From the NCBI GenBank assembly GCA_045636425.1, contig JAZTXM010000006.1, positions 8,784-72,783 on the forward strand: DNA of 64,000 nucleotides, given 5' to 3'. Each line of letters starts with the position of its first letter. The first letter of the stretch is position 1. Of this stretch, positions 2,620 through 48,285 are shown one piece after another. The DNA comes from Clostridia bacterium. Its GTDB lineage: Bacteria; Bacillota; Clostridia; UMGS1883. The position numbers were made by a program, and so were the translations under genes. The notes beneath the pieces were generated by a model. That model was given only the letters and a program-made list of their open reading frames with translations, ran no database searches and was not told where the DNA came from.

Positions 2620-3444
2620 TTAATCTATGTTTTCTGTCACCTGAATTGAGTTTTCGAAGCCATACTTCTTAGCAATTTCCATAAGCTTTCCATTCTCGGA
2701 AAGGGTCTTGATAGCTTCGTTTACCTTAGAAGTAAGCTCGCTTCCCTTCTTGAAGCCTACAGCGTAGATTTCGCTGTCAAGCTCTATCGCCTCTGCAATG
2801 GCAAGGTCCTTATAGTCGCCCTGACCGCAGATATTCTTTGCAAGGATAATATCAACAACTGCAAAATCAACTGCACCTGACTTAACTTCTGAGAAAGCAT
2901 TGATCTGTGCTGTTGTAGAGAAAATCTTGTCAGCATCTGTAACTGTGGATGCATAGGATGCACCTGCACTGCCACCCTCTACGCAAGCTGTCTTTCCCTT
3001 GAGGTCAGCTTCGGATGTGATTGCAGCGGCATTTTCTGCCTTTGTTACAACACACTGCTGATTAAGCATGTAACCGTATGAGAAGTCAACAAGGTCTGAA
3101 CGCTTTACGCTTGCACCGTTTACCTCGTCGGAGGAATTAGCTGTGAATCCGTTCCATACGCAGTCGATTGCACCGGAATTAAGTTCGTTGTATTTCTGAG
3201 CCCAGTCGATAACCTGGAAGTCAACATCCATACCGATGATTTTTCCGACTTCCTGAGCAAACTCGGTTTCAAAACCTGTCCATGTGCCGTCTGCTTCCTG
3301 TTCATTCATCTTTTCGAAAATAGTAACACCGCAAACAAGTGTGTCCTTTTCATTTGATGCGTTGTTTGCCTTTTCCGTGCCGCAGCCTGCAAACATTGAA
3401 AAAGCAAGCATAAGTGTAAGTACAATTGCAAGTAATTTTTTCAT
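2620..3444 (-). CDS. Amino acid ABC transporter substrate-binding lipoprotein
   Basis: Lipoprotein signal (LAFSMFAGCG) and SBP_bac_3-like body; first gene of the three-gene transporter operon. Confidence 0.8.
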   Translation of the reverse strand: MKKLLAIVLTLMLAFSMFAGCGTEKANNASNEKDTLVCGVTIFEKMNEQEADGTWTGFETEFAQEVGKIIGMDVDFQVIDWAQKYNELNSGAIDCVWNGFTANSSDEVNGASVKRSDLVDFSYGYMLNQQCVVTKAENAAAITSEADLKGKTACVEGGSAGASYASTVTDADKIFSTTAQINAFSEVKSGAVDFAVVDIILAKNICGQGDYKDLAIAEAIELDSEIYAVGFKKGSELTSKVNEAIKTLSENGKLMEIAKKYGFENSIQVTENID

Positions 3445-3516: not shown

Positions 3517-5013
3517 TTACATTTTCCCTCTTTTATAAAGACCGCTTAGATTTTTGTAAAACGCCCTGTCTATACCCGAAAGGGCTTCTTCGGTAATTCT
3601 GAAGCACCAGTTTCCCTCTGCCACTCCGGGGTGATTCATACAGGTATCGGAGCCGAAACCGCACAAATCCTGAATAGGAACTATAGTAAGGATTGCGCCG
3701 CTCCTCCACAAGGTGCGGATTACACTGCGTATGGAATCGCTGTGAAATCCTCCCTGCCCCCAATCTCCGTGAAAATCGCAGTAATCCATAGCGTAGGCAC
3801 GGCTTTTCTCATCGGATTCCCACAGCCAGCCTAAAAGTGTATTGTTATCATGGGTACCTGTATATCCCACTGTGTTTTTAGTGTAATTATGGGGAAGATG
3901 CACCGTGTCATCATCGGTTATAAAGGCGAACTGCATTACGCCCATTCCGGGAAAGCCTGCTTCTTTCACCAGATTTCGCACATCGTCATCAATATCTCCC
4001 AAATCCTCGGCAATAATATTTGCATCGGGATATTTTTCTTTAAGCTTGTTAAAAAATTCGATTCCGGGCCCTTTTTCCCATCTGCCCTCGGTAGCCTTTT
4101 CCCCGGCAGGGATAGACCAGTAGGCGGAAAATGCACGGAAGTGGTCTATTCTTACGGCATCATACATTTTAAGAGCACAGCCAAGTCTGTTTATCCACAA
4201 ATCGTAGCCTGTTTTTTCAAGATTATCCCAGTTGTAAAGAGGGTTTCCCCATTTTTGTCCGTCCTCGCAGAAATAATCGGGGGGCACTCCTGCACATCTT
4301 TTAAGGTTCATATCCTCATCCAACGAGAAAAATTCGGGGTTTGCCCACACATCGGCACTGTCGTGTGAGAGATAAATAGGCATATCTCCGATAATGGAGA
4401 TACCTTTTTCGTTTGCGTACTTTTTCATGCTTTCCCACTGTGAAAAGAATTCGTACTGCAAAAATTCGTAAAAAGAAATATCCTCGGAAAGCTCCGCCTT
4501 TGCCTTTTCCAGGGCATCACTGTTGCGAAGCTTAAGACCCTCATCCCACTCATACCAGGGGAGGAGAGAATTTTTTTCTTTAAGAGCACAGAAAAGAGCG
4601 TAGTTCTCCACCCACGGATTTTTACTGCAAAAATCCGCAATTTCGCCTTTCATTTCCTCCGAAAGGCGTGAATATGCCCTGCGGAAAATTTTCTCTCTGG
4701 TGTTTTTTAAAAACTCATAGTCCGTTACATATATATCGGAGGATTTACATTCCTCCACATCGCTTTTTGTTAAAAGCTTTTTCTCCATAAGTATTTCGGG
4801 GTCAATAAAATAGATATTCCCTGCAAAAGCACTCTTTCCGCTGTATGGGGAGTTATAGTCATCGCAGGGACCGCAGGGCAGTACCTGCCATGCCCCAAAT
4901 GAGCAGGAGGATAGAAAATCTATAAAATCGCTTGCTGCCTTTCCCAGTGTTCCTATGGCAAAAGGACCGGGGAGGGAGGAAATGTGCATCAATACACCGC
5001 CGCATCTTTTCAT
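3517..5013 (-). CDS. malQ: 4-alpha-glucanotransferase (amylomaltase, GH77)
   Basis: N-terminal GVLMHISSLPGPFAIGTLG typical of MalQ; 498 aa. Confidence 0.85.
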   Translation of the reverse strand: MKRCGGVLMHISSLPGPFAIGTLGKAASDFIDFLSSCSFGAWQVLPCGPCDDYNSPYSGKSAFAGNIYFIDPEILMEKKLLTKSDVEECKSSDIYVTDYEFLKNTREKIFRRAYSRLSEEMKGEIADFCSKNPWVENYALFCALKEKNSLLPWYEWDEGLKLRNSDALEKAKAELSEDISFYEFLQYEFFSQWESMKKYANEKGISIIGDMPIYLSHDSADVWANPEFFSLDEDMNLKRCAGVPPDYFCEDGQKWGNPLYNWDNLEKTGYDLWINRLGCALKMYDAVRIDHFRAFSAYWSIPAGEKATEGRWEKGPGIEFFNKLKEKYPDANIIAEDLGDIDDDVRNLVKEAGFPGMGVMQFAFITDDDTVHLPHNYTKNTVGYTGTHDNNTLLGWLWESDEKSRAYAMDYCDFHGDWGQGGFHSDSIRSVIRTLWRSGAILTIVPIQDLCGFGSDTCMNHPGVAEGNWCFRITEEALSGIDRAFYKNLSGLYKRGKM

Positions 5014-32452: not shown

Positions 32453-32461
32453 ACAGGTAAC

Positions 32462-32508
32462 AAAAAGAACAGACACCCACAAACGTGGATGCCTGTTCTT
32501 TTTGGCGC
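32462..32508. terminator. Hairpin plus T-tract terminator after the SLH gene. It is the first of three similar bidirectional hairpins in the repeat array
   Basis: gaacagacaccc...ggatgcctgttc hairpin followed by TTTTT; A-tract on the 5' side. Confidence 0.6.
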
Positions 32509-33190
32509 GCCCCCTGGGATTCTACCCGTTTGCGGTGCCCGACATATGTCTGCGGCGATAAATCACCTTGCCATCTGTCGACCGCTGCACAACCCTATGC
32601 CTTCCCTTCATCCGCCACCGGCGGCGGTCAGGCTCGGTTCCCCCTCCCCACGGGTCGGGGCTTCGAATCCCTTTTATCAAGCAAAAAAACAAAAGATACC
32701 CACTTCGTAGGTATCTTTCGCTTTTTTTGGCGTGCCCCGGGATTCTACCCGTTTGCGGTGCCCGACATATGTCTGCGGCGATAAATCGCCTTGCCCCCTG
32801 TCGACCGCTGCACAACCTGCACCCTCGCTTCATCCGCCATCGGCGGCGCTCGGGCTCGGTTCCCCCTCCCCACGGGTCGGGTTTTCGAATCCCTTTTAAT
32901 TCAAGCAAAAAGAAACAGACACCCACTGACGTGAATGTCTGTTCTTTTTGGCGTGCTTGGAGGGATTCGAACCCCCGACCCTTTGGTTCGTAGCCAAATA
33001 CTCTATCCAACTGAGCTACAAGCACACATTATTCAATTTTACGTTTGTTCGAATCCGGGATTCTACCCGTTTGCGGTGCCCGACATCTGTCAGCGGTGAT
33101 AAATCACCTTGTCATCTGTCGACCGCTGCACACCCCTGCGCCTTCCCTTCGTCCGCCACAGGCGGCGGTCAGGCTCGGTTCCCCCGCCCC
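32503..33190. repeat. Tandem array of about 215-225-bp repeat units: R1 32503-32690, R2 32727-32900 and a partial R3 33056-33190, interleaved with hairpin terminators and the tRNA-Arg gene
   Basis: R1, R2 and R3 are roughly 85-90% identical over about 160 bp (gggattctacccgtttgcggtgcccgacatatgtctgcggcgataaatcacc...). On the minus strand R1 and R2 end ...CGGGTAGAATCCCGGGGCACGCCA, which resembles the tRNA T-arm, acceptor and CCA. Confidence 0.8.
32941..33017 (-). tRNA. tRNA-Arg (anticodon ACG), CCA encoded
   Basis: Manual cloverleaf: acceptor GUGCUUG/CAAGCAC, D-arm GCUCAGUUGGAUAGAGU, anticodon loop CUACGAA, T-arm GGGGGUUCGAAUCCCUC. Closely resembles E. coli tRNA-Arg(ACG). Confidence 0.85.
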
Positions 33191-33234
33191 TTTGGTTCGT
33201 AGCCAAATACTCTATGGGGCTGAGCTACAAGCAC
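33187..33234 (-). pseudogene. 5' fragment of tRNA-Arg (acceptor 5' strand through anticodon arm, diverged D-loop) fused to repeat unit R3
   Basis: Minus-strand GTGCTTGTAGCTCAGCCCCATAGAGTATTTGGCTACGAACCAAAGGGG matches the first roughly 45 nt of the intact tRNA but lacks the T-arm and 3' acceptor. Confidence 0.55.
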
Positions 33235-33389
33235 ATATTATTAAACAAATCTTTTCAAACGCATTGACTATAATAACACATAAATCCGAAAAAAGCAAGA
33301 CTTATTTTGCAAAATTTTCAAATTTTATTACACTTTGCTCTATTTCAATTGACAAAAGGTTTCTTCTAATGATATACTAACTTATTATA

Positions 33390-38490: not shown

Positions 38491-39660
38491 ATGTATCATA
38501 ATAAAACCGCTTCGGCAGTCATAGTAGCTGCAGGCTCGGGCACACGAATGGGCAGGGACAAGCTTCTCATTGACTTGTGTGGAAAAACCACCATTGTCCG
38601 CAGTGTCGAGGCTTTTAAAAACACAGGTTTTTTTGATGAAATTATACTTGTGGCAAGCGAAAAAAACATGGAATCCATAAGCTCCGAAATGGAAAACCAA
38701 TCCCTTTCGGACGATGTACGTATAATTCTCGGAGGCAGTAGCCGCGGCGAAAGCTCATTTCTTGGTATAAATGCCGCAAAAGGTGAATATGTCCTTATTC
38801 ATGACGCTGCTCGCCCCCTCGTTTCAGCTCAAACCATTGAGGACACCCTCTCTGCTTGTATTAAGAGCGGTGCCGCGGCGGCAGGGGTAAAATCCAAGGA
38901 TACAATTAAACAGGTTTCCCCGGATAATACCATTTCCGCGACAGTTCCCAGGGAATCGGCAGTGCTGATTCAGACCCCCCAGGGCTTTAAACGTGCAGAC
39001 ATTCTGTCTGCATATAGTGAGTACGGCTTTAACGAAACCGACGACTGTTCCCTTATGGAAAAAATGGGGGCAAGCATAGCCATAGTGGAGGGGAGCTACG
39101 AAAATTTGAAGCTTACCACGGCGGAGGATGTTGTAACCGCAGAGGGAATCCTCAAAAAACGCGGCGAAGGAAGGAGTGTTGTTCCCATGCGTGTCGGAAC
39201 AGGCTTTGATACACATAGACTGGTTGAAAACCGTGACCTTATAATAGGCGGAGTAAAAATCCCCTACGAAAAGGGGCTCTTAGGGCATAGCGATGCCGAT
39301 GTACTTATTCATGCAGTGATTGATGCACTCTTTGGAGCGGCGGCATTGGGGGATATCGGAACGCATTTCCCCGATACCGATGATAAGTATAAGGGCGTAT
39401 CAAGCATGCTTCTTTTGGAAGAAGCGGCGCGGCTTATTCGCGAAGAAGGCTATGAAATAGGGAATATAGATGCCACCATCATCGTACAAAAACCAAAAAT
39501 GGCACCCCATATCCCAATCATGTGCCGCAATATTGCCGATGCCGTAAAAACCGATGCTTCACGCATCAGCATTAAGGCGAAAACCAACGAACAAATGGGC
39601 TTCGCCGGCAGAGGCGAAGGAATCGAAGCCCGAGCCGTAGCATTATTATACCGCAACTAA
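38491..39660 (+). CDS. ispDF: Bifunctional IspD/IspF (MEP cytidylyltransferase / MEcPP synthase fusion)
   Basis: N-terminal [13 protein letters not shown] (IspD) and C-terminal GFDTHRL...[30 protein letters not shown] (IspF) in one 389-aa ORF. Confidence 0.8.
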
Positions 39661-39668
39661 AATAATTG

Positions 39669-39697
39669 TTGACATTTAACCCACATGGATATATAAT
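39669..39697 (+). promoter_or_regulatory. Consensus sigma-A promoter (TTGACA-17-TATAAT) driving a short sRNA (module A)
   Basis: Perfect -35 and -10 hexamers with a 17-nt spacer. Confidence 0.65.
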
Positions 39698-39703
39698 GAA
39701 TAT

Positions 39704-39775
39704 AGAAAAAGGCAAAACCTCAAACGGTTATGCCAAAGAATAGTTGCAAATTTTAAAGAGTAACCGTCTTTGCCG
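39704..39775 (+). ncRNA. Putative antisense sRNA A, about 72 nt, of a type I toxin-antitoxin-like module
   Basis: Lies between the consensus promoter and an intrinsic terminator (9-bp stem gagtaaccg/cggttactc + TGCTTTT). Overlaps the 3' end of the convergent small hydrophobic ORF. About 85% identical to the paralog at 45688-45779. Confidence 0.5.
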
Positions 39776-39833
39776 AGGCGGTTACTCTGCTTTTATCGCA
39801 AATGTTATTAACAACACAATTGTTAGAAAGAAT
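39762..39833 (-). CDS. Type I toxin-like small hydrophobic peptide, paralog A (IQYILRIFFLTIVLLITFAIKAE). Its start position is ATT rather than ATG, so it is possibly inactivated
   Basis: Homologous to ORF 45629-45697 in sequence and context. Own RBS AGGAGG 8 nt upstream. Promoter TTGAAA-17-TATAAT on the minus strand at 39908-39936. Confidence 0.35.
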
Positions 39834-40024
39834 ATTCTTAATATGTATTGAATAACTACCACCTCCTCTCGGAGCGTGGCATAACCGCCGGTGAAAAACA
39901 CCGTTAAGAAGTTTTGCCTTCCTAAACATTATATCGTATTTTCCCCGGCGTTTCAAGAAAAATTTTGAATTAACATAAAACATCCCCCTTTTGGATAATA
40001 TATCTCTAAAAGGGGGCTTTTTCT

Positions 40025-41131
40025 ATGAAAAAAATTATAAAAATAACCGCCGTGACCGCCTTGTGCCTCATGGGCATATTTGTGGCTTTCACCATAATCT
40101 ACGGAATGCTTTCGGGCATAAACACTCGTGAAAACACCCCCGAAAAAACCGATTCCTCCCCAGACCTTTCCGTAGTTCGCCGTGACAGCGGAGCATTTAT
40201 AATGGCACCACGACTCAGGGAGGATATGTTAGAGGGTGCCCTACAGAGCGTAGTGGGAATATCTTCTGCCGATGCCTCGCCAAGTCAGGAGGGCGATACA
40301 TGGTACATGGGCAGCGGAGTTCTTGTCAGCACAGACGGGTATATAATCACCAATCACCACGTAATCGGGGCTCGCCCTAAAAGGATTGTGGTCACCCTCC
40401 ACAACGGAGATGTCACCGAAGGAACTACCGTCTGGAGCGAAAGCTCTCTCGATTTAGCAATAGTAAAAATCGACGGGGAGGGGTATACCTGCTCAAAATT
40501 AGGCGATGCCAAAAATCTTCGCGTGGGTGAAAGCGTGGTAGCAATCGGCAATCCTCTGAGCCTGCAATTTCAGCGGACAGTAACGGCAGGCATCGTCAGT
40601 GCTTTGGGACGGAGCATCAGCATAGAAAACGAGGACGGCACCTCCTCCTATATGGAGGATTTGATTCAGACAGATGCCTCCATAAACCCCGGTAACAGCG
40701 GAGGCCCACTCCTTAATGACGACGGCGAAGTCGTGGGCATTAATACCGTCAAGGTTTCCTCAGCGGAGGGAATGGGATTTGCCGTTCCCGTAAACGTGTG
40801 CGTTCCCATTATGAAAAGGCTTCGCAGCACAGGAAGCTTCCGCACCCCCTACCTGGGGCTTTACGCCTATACTCCCACAGCCGCCCGATATTTAGAAGAG
40901 AATGAAAACATAAAACAAGGACTTTTTGTGGCAAAGTTAGATGCAAAAGGACCTGCCTTCGATGCAGGAATACGCTACGGCGATATAATCACGGCAATTG
41001 AAGGGGTCGAGGTTGATTCCATGCTTACCCTCCGTGAAGAATTGTATAAAAAACAAAGCGGGGACAGAATCACCCTCGAAATCGTCCGCGACGGAAACAT
41101 GCGCAAAATCTCCGTCCTCCTCTCCGATTGA
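40025..41131 (+). CDS. htrA: Trypsin-like serine protease with a C-terminal PDZ domain (HtrA/DegP family)
   Basis: Catalytic triad motifs (TNHHV, D, GNSGGPL) and a PDZ domain; N-terminal TM anchor. Confidence 0.8.
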   Translation: MKKIIKITAVTALCLMGIFVAFTIIYGMLSGINTRENTPEKTDSSPDLSVVRRDSGAFIMAPRLREDMLEGALQSVVGISSADASPSQEGDTWYMGSGVLVSTDGYIITNHHVIGARPKRIVVTLHNGDVTEGTTVWSESSLDLAIVKIDGEGYTCSKLGDAKNLRVGESVVAIGNPLSLQFQRTVTAGIVSALGRSISIENEDGTSSYMEDLIQTDASINPGNSGGPLLNDDGEVVGINTVKVSSAEGMGFAVPVNVCVPIMKRLRSTGSFRTPYLGLYAYTPTAARYLEENENIKQGLFVAKLDAKGPAFDAGIRYGDIITAIEGVEVDSMLTLREELYKKQSGDRITLEIVRDGNMRKISVLLSD

Positions 41132-41160
41132 TATCACTCCTCCCCACAGACTGTCGCCGC

Positions 41161-41189
41161 CCTTGACAAAATCAAAATAACATTATATA
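41161..41189 (+). promoter_or_regulatory. Consensus promoter TTGACA-17-TATAAT for the RelE-like cassette
   Basis: Perfect hexamers and spacer. Confidence 0.6.
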
Positions 41190-41225
41190 ATAATAGTATA
41201 AAGATTTTTTCTTGGAGGATATGCT

Positions 41226-41486
41226 GTGGTTATCAGATATTCAAAAAACGCATTGCGATTTCTAAGCAAGTTGGATAAAAACTCTGTAACGCGTATAAGA
41301 AATGCTGTAGATGGATTGCTTCATATTCCGCCTGAGGGCGATATAAAGCTTCTCAAGGGATATGATGATGCTCGCAAAAGGTTGCGTGTAGGTTCATGGC
41401 GTATAATTTTCAAGTATGTAGCGGAAAATAAGCTTGAAATATTATATATTATAGATATAGGTAATCGTGGGGACATATATAAGTGA
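41226..41486 (+). CDS. Type II toxin, RelE/StbE (ParE superfamily) family; GTG start
   Basis: Aligns with E. coli RelE across its length (ALRFLSKL...KLLKG...RLRVGSWRIIFKY...LEILYIIDIGNRGDIYK). RBS GGAGGA 7 nt before GTG. Confidence 0.7.
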   Translation: MVIRYSKNALRFLSKLDKNSVTRIRNAVDGLLHIPPEGDIKLLKGYDDARKRLRVGSWRIIFKYVAENKLEILYIIDIGNRGDIYK

Positions 41487-41498
41487 GGAGGAGATACA

Positions 41499-41720
41499 AT
41501 GTCTGAAATTGTTGCTAATGCAGCTCGAATGATGGAAATGTTGCCTGATTCTGAAAAAAGCTTTGCATTTGAGTTTATAAAAAAGCTTGTCCTTGCGTGG
41601 GATCCTGATTTTACAAAAGTCACTGCGGAAGAAGCAAAGCAAATAGAGGCAGCGGAACAAAGCGGTTTTGTTGATGAGAAGGATATAGACTGGAACAACC
41701 TGTCAAAAATGTTTGACTAA
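41499..41720 (+). CDS. Small acidic protein (73 aa), candidate cognate antitoxin encoded downstream of the toxin
   Basis: Follows relE-like 12 nt later with RBS GGAGGAG; no recognisable HTH or RHH; terminated by a perfect palindromic hairpin at 41722-41757. Confidence 0.35.
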   Translation: MSEIVANAARMMEMLPDSEKSFAFEFIKKLVLAWDPDFTKVTAEEAKQIEAAEQSGFVDEKDIDWNNLSKMFD

Positions 41721-42005
41721 CAAAACAAGGTGGGATTGCGATGCAATCCCACCTTGTTTGTTTCTTAAAAAGTCAACCCCCAATATTAAAAATCCGACTT
41801 TCTTCCTATTATATATAACAACAAACCCCGTGGGGTTTGCACCATCACTCTGCATTTCGCACTCCAATTGCGGCAGGACAGCAGGACCCGTCCCCACAGA
41901 CTGTCGCCGCCCCCCTGTTTTGTAACATAACCATCACAAAACTCTATTTATGTGTTACTTATGTTACAAAACATTACAGTTTCATTACATCTGCAAAAAA
42001 CCTAT

Positions 42006-45259: not shown

Positions 45260-45446
45260 GGCTGTTCTTTTTTGTCCGCTTGACAACAAGCATCAAAAGT
45301 GGTAAAATATGCCCATAATCTTTATTGGAGGGGATAAAATGACAAAGCGTATTACATGTGTACTGATGATGTTCATCCTTGTGTCACAAGGATGCTTTGC
45401 ACAGGACGTGTTTTTTGGAAAAGCCAGAACAGAGGAATATATTCCG
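45260..45446. repeat. 187-bp direct repeat, copy 1, identical to 46798-46983. It contains a promoter, RBS and the first 36 codons of the transglutaminase-like gene
   Basis: Both copies can be aligned in the raw sequence. Confidence 0.85.
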
Positions 45447-45493
45447 GTGATAATGGGGACGGGTGATAATGGGGACGTACATTTTTTGTCAAC
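45447..45493. repeat. Solo copy of the element end: two copies of the 13-mer GTGA(T/C)AATGGGGAC followed by GTACATTTTTTGTCAAC
   Basis: Nearly identical to 45839-45885 and to the inner part of the inverted right end at 46675-46793. Confidence 0.75.
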
Positions 45494-45514
45494 TTTTCCC
45501 AAAACAAAAAGCCA

Positions 45515-45543
45515 ACCGAAGTTGACTTTTCTTTCGCAATACT
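45515..45543 (+). promoter_or_regulatory. Consensus promoter TTGACT-17-TATAAT for the type I toxin-like mRNA (module B)
   Basis: Perfect -10 hexamer, 5/6 match in -35, 17-nt spacer. Confidence 0.6.
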
Positions 45544-45628
45544 ATATAATAGAACACAAGGTAAGACCTAAAACAGTGTAACAGCTGGGCGGTTATGCCA
45601 TCATCTTCTTTTAAGGAGGTGATAGCTT

Positions 45629-45697
45629 ATGGATAGTGAATACATAATATCTTTTATGTTAATTCTGTTACTTTTAGTAATTTCCATAAAAAAATAA
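45629..45697 (+). CDS. Type I toxin-like small hydrophobic peptide (22 aa): MDSEYIISFMLILLLLVISIKK
   Basis: RBS AAGGAGG 9 nt upstream of ATG; a single predicted TM helix with a C-terminal KK; stop codon inside the stem of a bidirectional terminator; convergent antisense promoter downstream. Confidence 0.5.
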   Translation: MDSEYIISFMLILLLLVISIKK

Positions 45698-45779
45698 CGC
45701 CAGCCGACCAAAGCAATAGCGTTATTTTTTAAATAATTCTGATGTTTTGGCATAACCGTTTGAGGTCTTGCCTTTTTCT
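45688..45779 (-). ncRNA. Putative antisense sRNA B, about 90 nt, convergent with the toxin-like ORF and overlapping it 3'-to-3'
   Basis: Minus-strand promoter TTGACT (45809-45814)-17-TATAAT (45786-45791). Ends at the shared hairpin (aataacgc/gcgttatt) plus U-tract. About 85% identical to sRNA A. Confidence 0.5.
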
Positions 45780-45880
45780 ATTTACATTATATAACCACAT
45801 AGGGAAAAAGTCAACCCCTAATATAGAAAATCCATCTAGGTGACAATGGGGACGGGTGACAATGGGGACGTACATTTTTG

Positions 45881-46618
45881 TCAACTTTTGTATATTATTC
45901 CTCGCGATATCCCGGTCACCCGTTCCAGTTGTCGTATTGAATACTCTTTCTTCATTTTATTTAACATCGCATTTCGCTCTTTCTTTTCCATGGTACAGAT
46001 GTTTTTAGGCTCAATTTTGTACTTTTTTATTATCCTTCTTCTTATTTCATCATCTGTCAGCTTTACTTTTCCATCTACATTAAAATCGCTCTCTTCGTCT
46101 TGTTTGTGAAACTCAACAAATTCTTCTTTGCTTATCATTCCCAAGATAAAATCCTTGTCAGTTATTCTGGATTCATCAAAAATGTACTCATTATAACTCG
46201 ACCATTCATAGTCCTTCAATTCATCTACTATTCCTGCCTTTTTAGGATTTTGATGTATATATCGGACTAAGCATAAAAAATATTCATCTACATCAACAGC
46301 CTTACTTTTATATCTGTTTGCAATTAATGCTCCGCTTCTTCCATACTTTATATTGTACCAGCGAGCATATTTTGTCAAAACCCTTTTCATTATCAGCGAT
46401 ATTTCACCGGCAGTTTTTTCTTTTAACAAAATATGTACGTGGTTACTCATCAGACAAAACGCATATATTTCGTATTCCATTTCGATTTTGATGCTGTTTA
46501 ATATCTCTATCAACTTTTCATAATCCACCGATTCTTCAAAAATATGCTGCCTGTTTACTCCTCTAAAAACAATGTGGTATATCCCACTTTGACTGATCAC
46601 TCTCGCTGCCCTTGCCAT
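45881..46618 (-). CDS. IS200/IS605-type Y1 transposase-like protein (245 aa) with a C-terminal HTH extension
   Basis: HuH motif (SNHVHILL) and catalytic Tyr region (RYIHQNP) of the Transposase_17/Y1_Tnp family; C-terminal SIRQLERVTGISRGIIYKS helix-turn-helix. Confidence 0.75.
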   Translation of the reverse strand: MARAARVISQSGIYHIVFRGVNRQHIFEESVDYEKLIEILNSIKIEMEYEIYAFCLMSNHVHILLKEKTAGEISLIMKRVLTKYARWYNIKYGRSGALIANRYKSKAVDVDEYFLCLVRYIHQNPKKAGIVDELKDYEWSSYNEYIFDESRITDKDFILGMISKEEFVEFHKQDEESDFNVDGKVKLTDDEIRRRIIKKYKIEPKNICTMEKKERNAMLNKMKKEYSIRQLERVTGISRGIIYKS

Positions 46619-46674
46619 TTTCTCATCTCCTTTCTATGAATTGTATCACGCTTAATCATATTAGTCAAGGAAAA

Positions 46675-46793
46675 GTTGACAAAAAATGTACGTCCCCATT
46701 GTCATCCCCATTGTCAGTCCCCATTGTCACCGTCCCCATTGTCACCCATTGTCACCCATTGTCACCAATGTCACTCCGTCCCCATTGTCACTC
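46675..46793. repeat. Right inverted end: about 8 tandem copies of the CCCCATTGTCA(C) 12-13-mer
   Basis: Direct reading of the sequence; inverted relative to the left-end 13-mers. Confidence 0.85.
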
Positions 46794-46875
46794 AACTGCT
46801 GTTCTTTTTTGTCCGCTTGACAGCAGAGTAAGAATGTAGTAAAATATATCCATAATCCTTATTGGAGGGGATAAA

Positions 46876-48285
46876 ATGACAAAGCGTATTACATGTGTAC
46901 TGATGATGTTCATCCTTGTGTCACAAGGATGCTTTGCACAGGACGTGTTTTTTGGAAAAGCCAGAACAGAGGAATATATTCCGATTAGCGGTTCGCTTTT
47001 TGAAAATTCCGAGGGTATAGCCTGCGAGGAAGATGAGCCGTCCATAAGCTTTTTTAACAATTTATCTTTCGAGGAATATATTCTTCAGGCGGTGACTGAA
47101 CGTGAGACTTTCCCCACGGAGATTCCGGGACTAGGTCAGTACAATCTTACAACAGAAGAATTTTTGAAATTATACAGAGATGTTGCGATGAGGAATCCCG
47201 AGGCATTTATAACACCGTCGTGTACGTACTACTACAATAGCAGTGGAATAGTTACAAGTGTAGTGCCTGAATATGTGCTTGAAAACAAAGCCGAGATGGA
47301 ATCTGCAATCTTTCAAATGAATGAGGCAATAAAGGAATATACAGACCTTGCTGCAAAGTATGATACAGAGCTTGAAAAATTGCTCGTAATCCATGATAAA
47401 ATGGTTGCCGAATGTGACTATGATGTGAATGTGCTGAATGAAGCAACTGAGAGTTTGGCAGAGCGTAGTGTATACCATGCCTTTGGTGCTTTGTGTAAAA
47501 GTAAAAAGAAGGCAGTGTGCCAGGGGTATTCACAGGCACTTTATATGATTGCCAATAAAATCGGTATAGAGATTGATTTTTGCCGCTCCGCAGAGAGAAA
47601 GCATATGTGGAACTATGTGAAGCTTGATGGCAAGTGGTACCACATGGATATGACCAATGACGACCCGTTAATCAAAGATGAAAACGGACTTGTTTCAGCA
47701 AGAAAAGACCCTCGTGCGAAGCATAGTTACTTCCTTGTGTCGGATAGCGGCCTTGAAAAGAGTATACATGGAACGGATTACGGCAATATCTTCGGCGAAA
47801 GATATACTTGTGACGATAAGCGGTACGAATCAGACCATTTGTTTAATATGAATCTGGTATTTACCGCTCAAAAAGATGAGAATGGATATTACACCGTTGA
47901 GATTGAAAACATAGTGGGACCATTGGGAACAGGTATTGCCATTCCGCTTAGAAGCAAAACCTTGTATACAGGCCCTGTGGTGACTTATCCGTTTGTAACA
48001 GAGACTCCCGTGGGTGTTACATCAAGCGGTCAATTAGTGACAAAACCGTGTCTTTACCTGGCGCAGTATGCGACAAAGGATATCCCCCCTGCAATTCCTT
48101 TTATAAAAATGGAGGATGGGATAAAGTCTTTCCCTGTGCAGGATGATTTCACAAAGGACAGCTATTATATGATAGGAATAGCAAGGGATGTGGAAAGTAA
48201 CCCCGTTTCGGAATTTTCTTCATTCCTCTTTGGAGAGGGGACGCTTTGCCCGCACTCAATCAACAAAAATTGGGTTTTGCGATAA
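46876..48285 (+). CDS. Secreted transglutaminase-like (cysteine protease fold) domain protein
   Basis: Signal peptide; Cys-His-Asp core (CQGYSQALY...HMWNYV...DMTNDDP). Confidence 0.6.
   Translation: MTKRITCVLMMFILVSQGCFAQDVFFGKARTEEYIPISGSLFENSEGIACEEDEPSISFFNNLSFEEYILQAVTERETFPTEIPGLGQYNLTTEEFLKLYRDVAMRNPEAFITPSCTYYYNSSGIVTSVVPEYVLENKAEMESAIFQMNEAIKEYTDLAAKYDTELEKLLVIHDKMVAECDYDVNVLNEATESLAERSVYHAFGALCKSKKKAVCQGYSQALYMIANKIGIEIDFCRSAERKHMWNYVKLDGKWYHMDMTNDDPLIKDENGLVSARKDPRAKHSYFLVSDSGLEKSIHGTDYGNIFGERYTCDDKRYESDHLFNMNLVFTAQKDENGYYTVEIENIVGPLGTGIAIPLRSKTLYTGPVVTYPFVTETPVGVTSSGQLVTKPCLYLAQYATKDIPPAIPFIKMEDGIKSFPVQDDFTKDSYYMIGIARDVESNPVSEFSSFLFGEGTLCPHSINKNWVLR

What the first reader, a model, noticed from the sequence alone, without database searches (positions are those of the whole stretch)
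39669..39936. Second, inverted paralog of the type I TA-like module, with ATT replacing the toxin ATG
A region about 85% identical to module B lies 6 kb upstream in the opposite orientation. It has a plus-strand sRNA with a perfect TTGACA-17-TATAAT promoter (39669-39697) and its own terminator (9-bp stem + TGCTTTT). On the minus strand there is a toxin-like ORF with its own promoter (TTGAAA-17-TATAAT at 39908-39936) and RBS AGGAGG, encoding (I)QYILRIFFLTIVLLITFAIKAE. The position aligned to the module B ATG is ATT here. This could be a decayed (domesticated) toxin or a rare ATT initiation that throttles toxin translation. A paralog also gives internal comparative evidence: the peptide's hydrophobic core and C-terminal K are conserved while the UTRs drift, which argues the ORF is under selection rather than being noise.
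Basis: partly seen in the sequence, partly recalled or inferred. Interest (0 to 1): 0.65.

Follow-up and report, generated by a model that had tools for sequence, protein, structure and literature searches.

The report
Toxin-antitoxin-like module with ATT start
This 300-base insert is one copy of a widespread, apparently undescribed small-RNA/mini-peptide "type I toxin-antitoxin-like" family of uncultured gut Clostridia, and its peptide gene, which starts with the rare codon ATT, looks conserved and still in use rather than dead.

Summary
The features are real, but two details are wrong. The minus-strand promoter lies at 39956-39928, not 39908-39936. Modules A and B are about 85% identical only over 39669-39737, and about 60-64% overall.

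About 116 are true modules, all from uncultured gut or rumen Clostridia. They share one anatomy:
- a near-perfect sigma-70-type promoter
- a ~90-nt sRNA with a 5' tail, invariant hairpin P1, linker and terminator
- a convergent 20-29-aa hydrophobic ORF whose Shine-Dalgarno is sequestered by an anti-SD
- the same P1 helix at the mRNA's 5' end

Rfam, Pfam, NCBIfam, PHROGs and the literature text search gave no match.

ATT is not decay. All four known members of this toxin subtype (window, L134-136, L053, L141; two loci, both orientations) keep ATT and a 23-codon frame. dN/dS is 0.06-0.31 while synonymous sites are about half changed. True decay in relatives appears as deletions. An ATG orthologue (MTYILRILFLTIVLLITFAIKVK) sits at the same site in a more distant relative.

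Best reading: a functional module whose toxin is throttled by AUU initiation. Toxicity, transcripts and AUU use are all untested.

The parts
39669..39697 (+). sRNA promoter, TTGACA (39669-39674) - 17 nt - TATAAT (39692-39697)
   Evidence: It scores 12/12 against the consensus. In 103 of 124 family members this promoter is a perfect 12/12, and its distance to P1 is fixed at 12-14 nt.
39704..39797 (+). Predicted ~92-nt antisense sRNA. The transcription start (~39704) is inferred. It has a 5' tail AGAAAAA, then hairpin P1, linker, terminator T1 and a U-tract.
   Evidence: The fold is -32.2 kcal/mol with z = -5.5. The same architecture appears in about 116 sRNAs from other genomes. The transcript ends are inferred, not measured.
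39711..39734 (+). Hairpin P1 of the sRNA, GGCAAAACC-TCAAAC-GGTTATGCC. It is the ultra-conserved core of the family.
   Evidence: Folds are.
39757..39797 (+). Terminator T1 of the sRNA (stem-loop 39757-39788 plus GCTTTTATC). Its stem contains the toxin's last codons and stop on the other strand.
   Evidence: The tool finds 14 pairs, a 4-nt loop and a T-rich tail. The stems differ in sequence between family members but remain hairpins.
39928..39956 (-). Toxin mRNA promoter, TTGAAA (39956-39951) - 17 nt - TATAAT (39933-39928)
   Evidence: It scores 11/12. Toxin promoters across the family are typically 10-11/12, weaker than the sRNA promoters.
39878..39918 (-). 5' UTR helix P1 of the toxin mRNA (GGCAAAACT ... 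GGTTATGCC). It encloses an inner hairpin, CGGTG-TTTTT-CACCG, at 39903-39889.
   Evidence: The element is conserved family-wide. RNAalifold predicts 8 pairs with only wobble-compatible changes. 98.6% of cells are paired, against 37-54% when the partners are slid.
39859..39879 (-). SD-sequestering hairpin: anti-SD CCACGCTCC, loop GAGA, SD GGAGGTGG
   Evidence: The SD is predicted paired with P = 0.99 here and a mean of 0.93 in 64 modules. The helix is 97.5% paired, with AU-to-GC double changes.
39782..39853 (-). Toxin-like ORF: ATT (39853-39851) plus 22 codons plus TAA (39784-39782), reading IQYILRIFFLTIVLLITFAIKAE. ATT lies 8 nt after GGAGG.
   Evidence: Sequence and translation are. ATT and the frame are kept in L134-136, L053 and L141. 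dN/dS is 0.06-0.31, and variable columns by codon position are 6/3/12.
39702..39734 (-). Predicted second terminator T2 for the toxin mRNA. It is the antisense of sRNA P1 (GGCATAACCGTTTGAGGTTTTGCC) plus the U-tract TTTTTCTAT. It is complementary to the toxin's own 5' P1.
   Evidence: An A-tract precedes P1 in 99% of sRNA genes but only 29% of toxin P1 copies. The TTTTTCTAT tail is nearly universal. A 5'-3' panhandle appears in the MFE, z = -9.1. Function is inferred.
45522..45814 (.). Paralogous module B, inverted relative to A. Toxin promoter 45522-45550 (+); ORF 45629-45697 (+), MDSEYIISFMLILLLLVISIKK; sRNA promoter 45814-45786 (-); sRNA P1 45772-45749 (-).
   Evidence: It is a canonical ATG member of the commonest toxin subtype.

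Best explanation
Module A (about 39664-39960) is an intact, roughly 300-bp cassette. It belongs to a large family of type I toxin-antitoxin-like modules in uncultured gut Clostridia, and I found no description of that family.

Inferred workings:
- The plus strand makes a ~92-nt sRNA from a perfect consensus promoter.
- The minus strand makes a ~220-nt mRNA for a 23-residue membrane-type peptide.
- The mRNA keeps itself translationally quiet in two ways: an anti-SD hairpin buries the Shine-Dalgarno, and in this subtype the start codon is AUU. In E. coli reporters AUU initiates at only 1-2% of AUG.
- The mRNA reads through the weak shared terminator T1 to a second terminator, T2, which is the antisense of the sRNA's 5' hairpin. 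The sRNA would then be fully complementary to the mRNA's 3' part, including the last codons.
- By analogy with TxpA/RatA and BsrG/SR4, this duplex would trigger degradation and/or block translation.
- The mRNA's 3' end can also pair with its own 5' hairpin, giving a hok-like fold-back.

Shown by sequence and comparison: the promoters, hairpins, ORF conservation, ATT conservation, and gain, loss and inversion of the cassette.

Inferred only: transcription, transcript ends, AUU initiation, peptide toxicity, sRNA-mediated repression and RNase involvement.
For: Family membership and anatomy:
All true hits share the same layout.
- sRNA promoters are a perfect 12/12 in 103 of 124 members. Toxin promoters are mostly 10-11/12.

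Coding:
- Family pN/pS is 0.12-0.62.
- Start codons are 58 ATG, 5 GTG and 2 ATT.

ATT retained under selection:
- The four ATT toxins are window IQYILRIFFLTIVLLITFAIKAE, L134-136 IQYIIRIF..., L053 IRYILRILFLMIV... and L141 IRYILKILFLIVVFLITFAVKAE.
- They occupy two loci and both orientations.
- Window vs L053 gives dN/dS 0.09, with P = 0.0045 by simulation. All deep pairs give 0.06-0.31 with pS 0.45-0.67. This is no looser than ATG relatives.
- An ATG orthologue, MTYILRILFLTIVLLITFAIKVK, sits at the same site in a relative with 70% IspDF identity.

Decay looks different:
- L137/138 lost the 5' UTR and SD. L140 lost the toxin. L142 keeps only a 25-nt scar.

Structures:
- P1, the inner hairpin and the anti-SD:SD helix are 95.6% paired, against 37-54% in slid controls.
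- The SD is predicted paired with mean P = 0.93.
- The A-tract asymmetry supports T2. The panhandle folds have z = -9.1 and -7.0.
- Window and L134 differ at 5 of ~215 transcribed positions, while the promoter spacers differ heavily.

AUU efficiency is 1-2% of AUG, and only infC and pcnB are confirmed AUU starts in E. coli (bioRxiv 10.1101/063800).
Against: - No transcript, ribosome or toxicity data exist for any member. Everything functional rests on analogy.
- The selection test uses only 23 codons and four sequences, two of them near-identical. The ORF's 3' third is also constrained by terminator T1.
- AUU efficiency was measured in E. coli, not in Clostridia.
- There is no detectable compensation for the weak start, since the SD and anti-SD match those of ATG relatives.
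- The sRNA's invariant hairpin is not complementary to the toxin's RBS region, so its role is unexplained.
- The panhandle follows almost automatically from the inverted repeat.
- The frame is also open upstream to a GTG at 39901. An alternative start cannot be formally excluded, though that GTG has no SD and lies inside a hairpin.
Confidence: 0.55

Rival explanations
1. Dead toxin with an orphan antitoxin. ATG mutated to ATT, silencing the peptide gene, and only the sRNA (or nothing) is still under selection. The ORF looks intact because too little time has passed.
For: - ATT is a very poor initiator, at 1-2% of AUG in E. coli.
- 63 of 65 confidently called family ORFs start with ATG or GTG.
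- The C-terminus is KAE rather than the usual KK or KVK.
- Toxin loss with sRNA retention does occur in this family (L140, L010, L013, L031).
Against: - ATT and the 23-codon frame persist in four members whose synonymous sites are 45-67% changed. dN/dS is 0.06-0.31, and changes concentrate at third codon positions.
- Those members sit at two loci and in both orientations.
- The promoter, P1, anti-SD/SD and terminators are all intact.
- The KAE/KAQ ending also occurs in ATG-started long-type toxins such as L073 and L124.
- Observed decay events are deletions, not point mutations.
Confidence: 0.2
2. A real sRNA and small membrane peptide pair, but not a toxin-antitoxin. The peptide would have a non-toxic role, such as a membrane regulator, and the antisense RNA would simply tune it.
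For: - No toxicity data exist.
- The peptides match no known toxin family.
- Very short hydrophobic peptides can be benign.
- An AUU start and a strongly sequestered SD would also suit a low-abundance regulator.
Against: The hallmarks fit type I TAs better than a housekeeping micro-protein:
- multiple divergent copies per genome and tandem arrays
- presence/absence polymorphism, inversion and deletion between close relatives
- association with REP/Y1-transposase elements and with IMG/VR contigs
- an antisense promoter stronger than the peptide promoter
- a hydrophobic helix with a charged C-terminus
Confidence: 0.15
3. A cis-regulatory leader, attenuator or non-coding mobile repeat (MITE/REP-like) belonging to the neighbouring genes ispDF/htrA. 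On this reading the small ORF is noise.
For: - The module lies in the 364-nt gap upstream of htrA, and its plus strand has a promoter followed by a terminator.
- The cassette behaves as a discrete ~300-bp indel.
Against: - The same cassette occurs in over 100 unrelated contexts and in both orientations. At this very gap it is inverted in L141.
- Close relatives have an empty site with htrA intact (L131-133).
- The ORF shows codon-level selection.
- No Rfam family matches.
Confidence: 0.04

Closest known systems
Fst / RNA I-RNA II (par locus of Enterococcus faecalis pAD1) and chromosomal Fst-like loci of Firmicutes
   Same: - Convergently transcribed toxin mRNA and small antisense RNA that meet at a shared bidirectional terminator.
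- A small hydrophobic peptide.
- 5' mRNA structure that hides the ribosome-binding site.
- A repeated element present near the 5' ends of both RNAs.
   Different: - No Fst Pfam or NCBIfam match and no Rfam match.
- The peptide is 20-29 aa, whereas Fst is 33 aa (from my own knowledge).
- The repeated element here is inverted in the DNA. The two RNAs therefore carry the same hairpin rather than complementary direct repeats, and no 5'-5' pairing with the RBS region is predicted.
TxpA/RatA and BsrG/SR4-type loci of Bacillus subtilis
   Same: - Gram-positive layout, with the antisense RNA on the 3' side overlapping the toxin mRNA and the end of the ORF (T1TAdb description, PMC8594479).
- SD sequestration.
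- Expected RNase III-type decay of the duplex.
   Different: - B. subtilis type I toxins are 28-60 aa (PMC6563280) and unrelated in sequence.
- No Rfam hit.
- This family adds an invariant 5' hairpin on the sRNA and a predicted second terminator.
hok/Sok
   Same: - A predicted fold-back of the mRNA 3' end onto its 5' end, resembling the hok fbi/tac closure (established knowledge).
- A translationally inert full-length mRNA.
   Different: - hok/Sok is found in Gram-negative bacteria (bioRxiv 10.1101/2025.08.07.668861), with a ~50-aa Hok and a mok leader ORF (my own knowledge).
- Sok lies 5' of the hok ORF.
- There is no sequence relation to this family.
Ibs/Sib
   Same: - Extremely short hydrophobic peptides (18-19 aa, my own knowledge).
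- Multicopy.
[quoted passage not shown]
   Different: - Found in Gram-negative organisms.
- Sib covers the whole ORF, whereas here only the last codons are overlapped.
- No Rfam hit.
Clostridioides difficile type I TAs (CD2517.1-RCd8 and relatives)
   Same: - The same class in Clostridia.
- A hydrophobic N-terminal part with a lysine-rich C-terminus.
- Association with mobile elements (PMC6563280).
   Different: - Toxins are 34-59 aa with no similarity to these peptides.
- The review lists nothing from Oscillospiraceae- or Ruminococcus-type gut MAGs.
AUU-initiated genes infC and pcnB of E. coli
   Same: A conserved AUU at the position of the start codon, behind a normal SD. AUU gives low, IF3-sensitive initiation (IF3 discrimination is established knowledge).
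   Different: Those are housekeeping proteins with demonstrated AUU use. Here use is only inferred from conservation, and I found no report of an AUU-started type I toxin.

Membership tests
Type I toxin-antitoxin systems (class) | Small (<60 aa) hydrophobic or transmembrane peptide ORF with a charged C-terminus | tested here: met
   A 23-aa peptide, IQYILRIFFLTIVLLITFAIKAE. Relatives are 20-29 aa and end in KK, KVK, KVR or KAE. Coding selection gives pN/pS 0.12-0.62.
Type I toxin-antitoxin systems (class) | An antisense RNA gene whose transcript is complementary to the toxin mRNA | tested here: met
   A convergent consensus promoter plus an intrinsic terminator. The overlap covers at least T1 and the last codons, and the whole sRNA if the mRNA ends at T2. 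Transcription itself was not observed.
Type I toxin-antitoxin systems (class) | The peptide is toxic when over-produced, and the RNA neutralises it | not testable with these tools
   No experimental data exist for any member. No cultured or annotated record carries the module.
Fst/RNAI-RNAII (par) | Toxin belongs to the Fst peptide family | tested here: not met
   Five family peptides gave no Pfam or NCBIfam hit at E up to 10.
Fst/RNAI-RNAII (par) | Convergent RNAs sharing a bidirectional terminator | tested here: met
   The T1 hairpin is shared by both strands. In B-type modules it is flanked by A- and T-runs. In module A the toxin-strand U-tract is weak.
Fst/RNAI-RNAII (par) | Direct repeats (DRa/DRb) that give complementary 5' regions, so the antitoxin pairs over the toxin RBS | tested here: not met
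   The repeat is inverted in the DNA, which gives both RNAs an identical hairpin. The best sRNA 5' domain duplex with the toxin 5' region is only a P1 arm exchange, z = -1.6, with no RBS pairing.
Rfam antitoxin RNA families (Sok, Sib, RatA, RNAII/Fst, SprA1as, and others) | Match to the family covariance model at gathering score | tested here: not met
   The whole window at gathering threshold gave only a tRNA. Permissive scanning of 39600-40030 gave only chance-level hits.
hok/Sok | Hok/Gef-family toxin, mok reading frame, and Sok antisense to the 5' leader | tested here: not met
   There is no Pfam hit, and the antisense RNA lies at the 3' side. Only the predicted 5'-3' fold-back resembles hok.
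The family defined here (P1-hairpin sRNA plus mini-toxin modules of gut Clostridia) | Consensus promoter, then AGAAAAAGG-CAARACC-TCAAAC-GGTTATGCC hairpin, then terminator. Convergent ORF behind an anti-SD/SD hairpin, with a second P1 helix in the mRNA 5' UTR. | tested here: met
   Every element is present in module A at the family's spacing.
Genes with functional AUU initiation (infC-like) | AUU at canonical SD spacing, conserved across lineages, with downstream frame under purifying selection | tested here: met
   ATT lies 8 nt after GGAGG. It is invariant in four members, with dN/dS 0.06-0.31.
Genes with functional AUU initiation (infC-like) | Demonstrated initiation at AUU (N-terminal sequencing, Ribo-seq or a reporter) | not testable with these tools
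   No expression data are available.

The most novel reading that the evidence does not exclude
Gut Clostridia carry a large, unrecognised superfamily of type I TA cassettes. In it, the antitoxin's invariant 5' hairpin copies the toxin mRNA's own 5' hairpin. The sRNA therefore competes with the mRNA's 5' end for the mRNA's 3' tail, acting as a mimic of a hok-like fold-back rather than as a plain antisense RNA.

Concerted changes of the two hairpin copies at positions that are unpaired within the hairpin hint at this.

Within this family, one toxin subtype would have fixed an AUU start. That would make toxin synthesis depend on IF3 fidelity or ribosome status, giving a built-in translational-stress sensor.
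Probability: 0.15. Interest if true: 0.7.

Novelty: new member of a known kind. Interest (0 to 1): 0.5.

Why it matters
If right, this adds a widespread and easily recognisable type I TA-like family. It occurs in at least about 100 species-level genomes and is multicopy. Its hosts are the uncultured Oscillospiraceae/Ruminococcus-type Clostridia that dominate animal and human guts, where type I systems are essentially uncharted. Gene callers miss these 20-29-aa ORFs altogether; a search of 5.8 billion predicted proteins found nothing.

The ATT subtype would be, as far as I could find, the first type I toxin with a conserved non-canonical AUU start. It offers a natural experiment on how far toxin translation can be throttled while the gene stays under selection.

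The invariant hairpin provides an 18-nt probe for finding the family. The empty, filled, inverted and scarred versions of the ispDF-htrA gap document cassette turnover between close relatives.

Tried and rejected
Searches that found nothing:
- A metagenome scan for non-ATG starts of this subtype (GAGGTGGTNGTTATHNNNTACATA) gave 0 hits. The same pattern and a KAE-end pattern in viral contigs also gave 0.
- A second metagenome scan with the A-type UTR gave only 3 loci, all ATG.
- A protein-database search with the extended ORF found no candidate (the first attempt was too short).
- Exact look-ups of the 39-aa GTG-extended ORF, IspDF and CarD were not on record.
- BLAST of the module against GenBank plasmids and phages found no match.
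- Rfam, Pfam, NCBIfam and PHROGs gave nothing.
- A literature string search gave nothing.

Ideas tested and rejected:
- Trans-pairing of the sRNA 5' domain with the toxin RBS, as in SprA1as or Fst. RNAduplex finds only the P1 arm exchange, z about -1.6.
- Scoring T1 as a toxin-strand terminator by counting T after the stem. This was uninformative because the T-run is absorbed into the stem.
- A 3-nt deletion at the start of module A. I first inferred this against 24-aa relatives, but 23-aa ATG relatives exist (L008, L078, L109, L143).
- The KAE C-terminus as a sign of decay. ATG long-type toxins share it.
- The upstream in-frame GTG (39901) or the GTG inside the SD as the true start. Neither has a usable SD or spacing, and the same open frame exists in ATG members.
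- An htrA leader or riboswitch. This is contradicted by the empty site and the orientation flip.
Full report
**1. What is in the sequence**

The window holds two inverted copies of a small module. Repeat finding gives arms 39657-39737 and 45746-45826, 81 nt and 81% complementary. A 19-mer from the core occurs exactly twice, against 0 expected.

In module A the plus strand carries TTGACA-17-TATAAT at 39669-39697 (12/12). It also carries a 14-pair terminator at 39757-39788 followed by GCTTTTATCG.

The minus strand carries TTGAAA-17-TATAAT at 39956..39928. Downstream come an SD (GAGAGGAGGTGG) and the frame ATT CAA TAC ... GAG TAA at 39853-39782, which reads IQYILRIFFLTIVLLITFAIKAE.

Module B has ATG at the aligned position and encodes MDSEYIISFMLILLLLVISIKK at 45629-45697.

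Identity between A and B, by segment:

| Segment | Identity |
|---|---|
| sRNA promoter + 5' tail + hairpin (39669-39737) | 85.5% |
| ORF | 56% |
| Linker + terminator | about 50% |
| Whole module | 60-64% |

**2. It is one member of a large family**

I scanned one genome per species for the 18-mer ACCTCAAACGGTTATGCC. Four hits are chance matches inside genes of unrelated bacteria (Colwellia, Pseudoalteromonas, Succinivibrio, Arsenicibacter). The rest come from uncultured gut or rumen Clostridia MAGs, variously labelled Clostridia, Oscillospiraceae, Ruminococcus, Monoglobus/Ornithomonoglobus, Acutalibacteraceae, Ructibacterium and one Lachnospiraceae. Seven IMG/VR contigs matched a 17-mer.

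Virtually every true hit has the same layout:
- a sigma-70-type promoter
- the sequence AUAGAAAAAGG-CAAGACC-UCAAAC-GGUUAUGCC, that is a 5' tail plus hairpin P1
- a 15-20-nt A/U-rich linker
- a terminator (T1)
- on the other strand, an SD and a 20-29-aa hydrophobic ORF whose stop codon lies in the T1 stem

Several toxin subtypes share the same RNA chassis: M.KYI.RI...KVK/KKVR, MDNEYIISFMIILLLLVISIKK, MEYVYIMIYIITLIVLIITIKK, MEYDILILALV..IKK, and longer MAILLMVKKLL...SIKAE forms.

sRNA promoters are a perfect 12/12 in 103 of 124 cases. Toxin promoters are mostly 10-11/12. The ORFs evolve as coding sequence, with pN/pS of 0.12-0.62 in four subtypes. Many genomes hold several copies, some in tandem.

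**3. The toxin mRNA leader**

The 5' UTR is conserved family-wide. It holds a helix with the same arms as the sRNA hairpin (GGYAAGACY ... GGUUAUGCC), which encloses an inner hairpin. An anti-SD follows and pairs with the SD.

RNAalifold recovers P1 with only wobble-compatible changes. On 27 leaders, the three helices I specified are 95.6% paired, against 37-54% when the partners are slid. The anti-SD:SD helix shows AU-to-GC double changes. The SD is predicted paired with mean probability 0.93 in 64 modules, and 0.99 in module A.

**4. The ATT question**

Among modules with a confidently called ORF, starts are 58 ATG, 5 GTG and 2 ATT. The two ATT cases are module A and L053 (IRYILRILFLMIVLLITFAIKAE).

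I fetched orthologous loci through IspDF homologues. That added two more ATT members:
- L134-136, with 90% IspDF identity, at the same site: IQYIIRIFFLTIVLLITFAIKAE.
- L141, a relative of the L053 species, at the same ispDF-htrA gap but in the opposite orientation: IRYILKILFLIVVFLITFAVKAE.

L053 itself sits at the position that corresponds to module B. All four known members of this subtype therefore use ATT. They occupy two loci and both orientations.

A more distant relative (IspDF 70%, L143-145) has an ATG version at the same site and in the same orientation: MTYILRILFLTIVLLITFAIKVK. This suggests that ATT and KAE are derived.

Selection tests:
- Window vs L053 shows 7.5 synonymous and 3.5 non-synonymous differences. 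That gives dN/dS 0.09, with P = 0.0045 under random substitution.
- All deep ATT-ATT pairs give 0.06-0.31, with raw pS of 0.45-0.67. Variable columns by codon position are 6/3/12.
- This is no looser than ATG relatives of the same subtype.
- Between window and L134, the transcribed core differs at 5 of ~215 positions while the promoter spacers differ heavily.

True decay in relatives takes the form of deletions:
- L137/138 lack the whole 5' UTR and SD.
- L140 lacks the toxin but keeps the sRNA.
- L142 retains only the first ~25 nt of the cassette.
- L131-133 have an empty site.

The KAE ending is shared with ATG-started long toxins, so it is not a sign of decay.

I conclude that the ORF is still under peptide-level selection. 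AUU at canonical SD spacing is the most likely start. The in-frame GTGs upstream lack usable SD spacing and occur equally in ATG members. AUU initiates at 1-2% of AUG in E. coli reporters, and only infC and pcnB are confirmed AUU genes there (bioRxiv 10.1101/063800).

**5. How it probably works (inferred)**

The sRNA's 5' domain does not pair with the toxin RBS. The best duplex is only a P1 arm exchange, z about -1.6. Regulation therefore most likely goes through the cis-antisense overlap.

Read on the toxin strand, the sRNA hairpin and its conserved A-tract form a hairpin followed by UUUUUCUAU. The A-tract is present before 99% of sRNA P1 copies but only 29% of toxin P1 copies. This argues that the element doubles as a terminator (T2) for the toxin mRNA. 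In module A the toxin-strand U-tract after T1 is poor, so read-through to T2 is expected. The sRNA would then be fully complementary to the mRNA's 3' part.

A mRNA ending at T2 folds with its 3' end paired to its own 5' P1, z = -9.1 for A and -7.0 for B. This resembles the hok fold-back.

In some modules both P1 copies change together at positions that are unpaired within the hairpin:
- GGTTGTGCC in both 3' arms of L143-145.
- GGCAGGA in both 5' arms of L130.
- GGTAAGATT in both copies of L129.
- GGCAAAA in both copies of window A and L134.

These cases hint at selection for this pairing or at gene conversion. The sample is small and biased by the probe.

**6. Comparison with known systems**

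The layout is that of Gram-positive type I TAs, with the antisense RNA on the 3' side (PMC8594479). It is closest to Fst/par (convergent RNAs with a shared terminator) and to TxpA/RatA and BsrG/SR4.

The defining features of those families are not met:
- There is no Fst or other toxin-family hit.
- There is no Rfam antitoxin hit.
- The repeat is inverted rather than direct.

The Clostridia review lists only C. difficile toxins of 34-59 aa and a few Fst/TxpA-like sequences (PMC6563280). No paper in the library contains the motif or the peptide strings. The peptides are absent from a 5.8-billion-protein collection and from GenBank plasmids and phages.

I file this as a new family of a known kind, with one subtype showing an unusual conserved AUU start.

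**7. Limits**

There are no expression or toxicity data. The selection test rests on 23 codons in four sequences. Transcript ends, RNase involvement and AUU use are inferences.

Noticed in passing
window 45296-46983: Module B lies inside a ~1.4-kb insertion. The insertion carries a 245-aa Y1/IS200-like transposase gene (45881-46618, minus strand; Pfam PF01797, E = 2.8e-16). That gene is flanked by inverted arrays of a 14-15-nt repeat, GTGACAATGGGGAC, at 45446-45486, 45839-45879 and 46667-46790, which looks like a REP/RAYT arrangement. The whole segment is bounded by a 151-nt direct duplication (45296-45446 = 46833-46983, 97%) of the promoter and 5' end of the transglutaminase-like gene 46876-48285. 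This leaves a 90-aa chimeric ORF at 45309-45581.
   Followed up: partly
L053:1-60, L140:2760-3700, L141:5450-5620: REP-like palindromes such as GTAGGGGCGTGCATTGCACGTCCG and GGGGACGTACATTTTT sit immediately outside the modules in related species. In L140 they separate two tandem B-type modules. This suggests the cassettes travel with, or insert next to, REP elements.
   Followed up: partly
window 41130-41910: The htrA-SLH gene gap holds a ParE/RelE-like ORF (41226-41486; Pfam ParE 21.3 bits, just under the cut-off of 23) and a 73-aa partner ORF (41499-41720). Direct repeats CCCCACAGACTGTCGCCGCCC flank the pair near 41145-41170 and 41886-41910. A copy of module B's outer flank follows (AAAGTCAACCCC..ATAT, 41769-41786 vs 45807-45824). 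In L140 the equivalent gap holds two type I-like modules, so this looks like a TA-swapping hot spot.
   Followed up: partly
L142:1265-1355; L131-133; L140:1370-1675; L137:2090-2400: The ispDF-htrA and carD-ispDF gaps show every state in close relatives: empty site, a 25-nt scar of the cassette's left end, a toxin-deleted remnant with the sRNA kept, and a toxin that has lost its 5' UTR and SD. These are useful for defining the cassette boundaries (about 39664-39963 in the window).
   Followed up: yes
L143-145 (about 2760-3010), L130, L129: The two P1 hairpin copies of one module (sRNA and toxin 5' UTR) change together at positions that are unpaired within the hairpin: GGTTGTGCC in both, GGCAGGA in both, and GGTAAGATT in both.
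   Followed up: partly
L123 (~4400-4560, minus strand): A P1 hairpin with its promoter but without a terminator or toxin lies ~110 nt upstream of a 437-aa gene whose C-terminal motifs resemble an M23 peptidase. This assignment is by eye, with no Pfam scan run. It is possibly a module remnant now acting as a leader.
   Followed up: no
window 32460-33250: A cluster of ~223-nt-spaced direct and inverted repeats (families D1, D3, D6, I3, I4) surrounds a tRNA-Arg(ACG) at 32949-33025 (minus strand). The repeat copies contain tRNA-like 3' halves and terminator-like hairpins, but ARAGORN and Rfam call only one tRNA.
   Followed up: partly
L001, L005, L006 (IMG/VR 3300027796) and L002, L004, L007: Complete modules also occur on contigs classified as viral in IMG/VR. 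I did not check whether these are prophages or misclassified.
   Followed up: no
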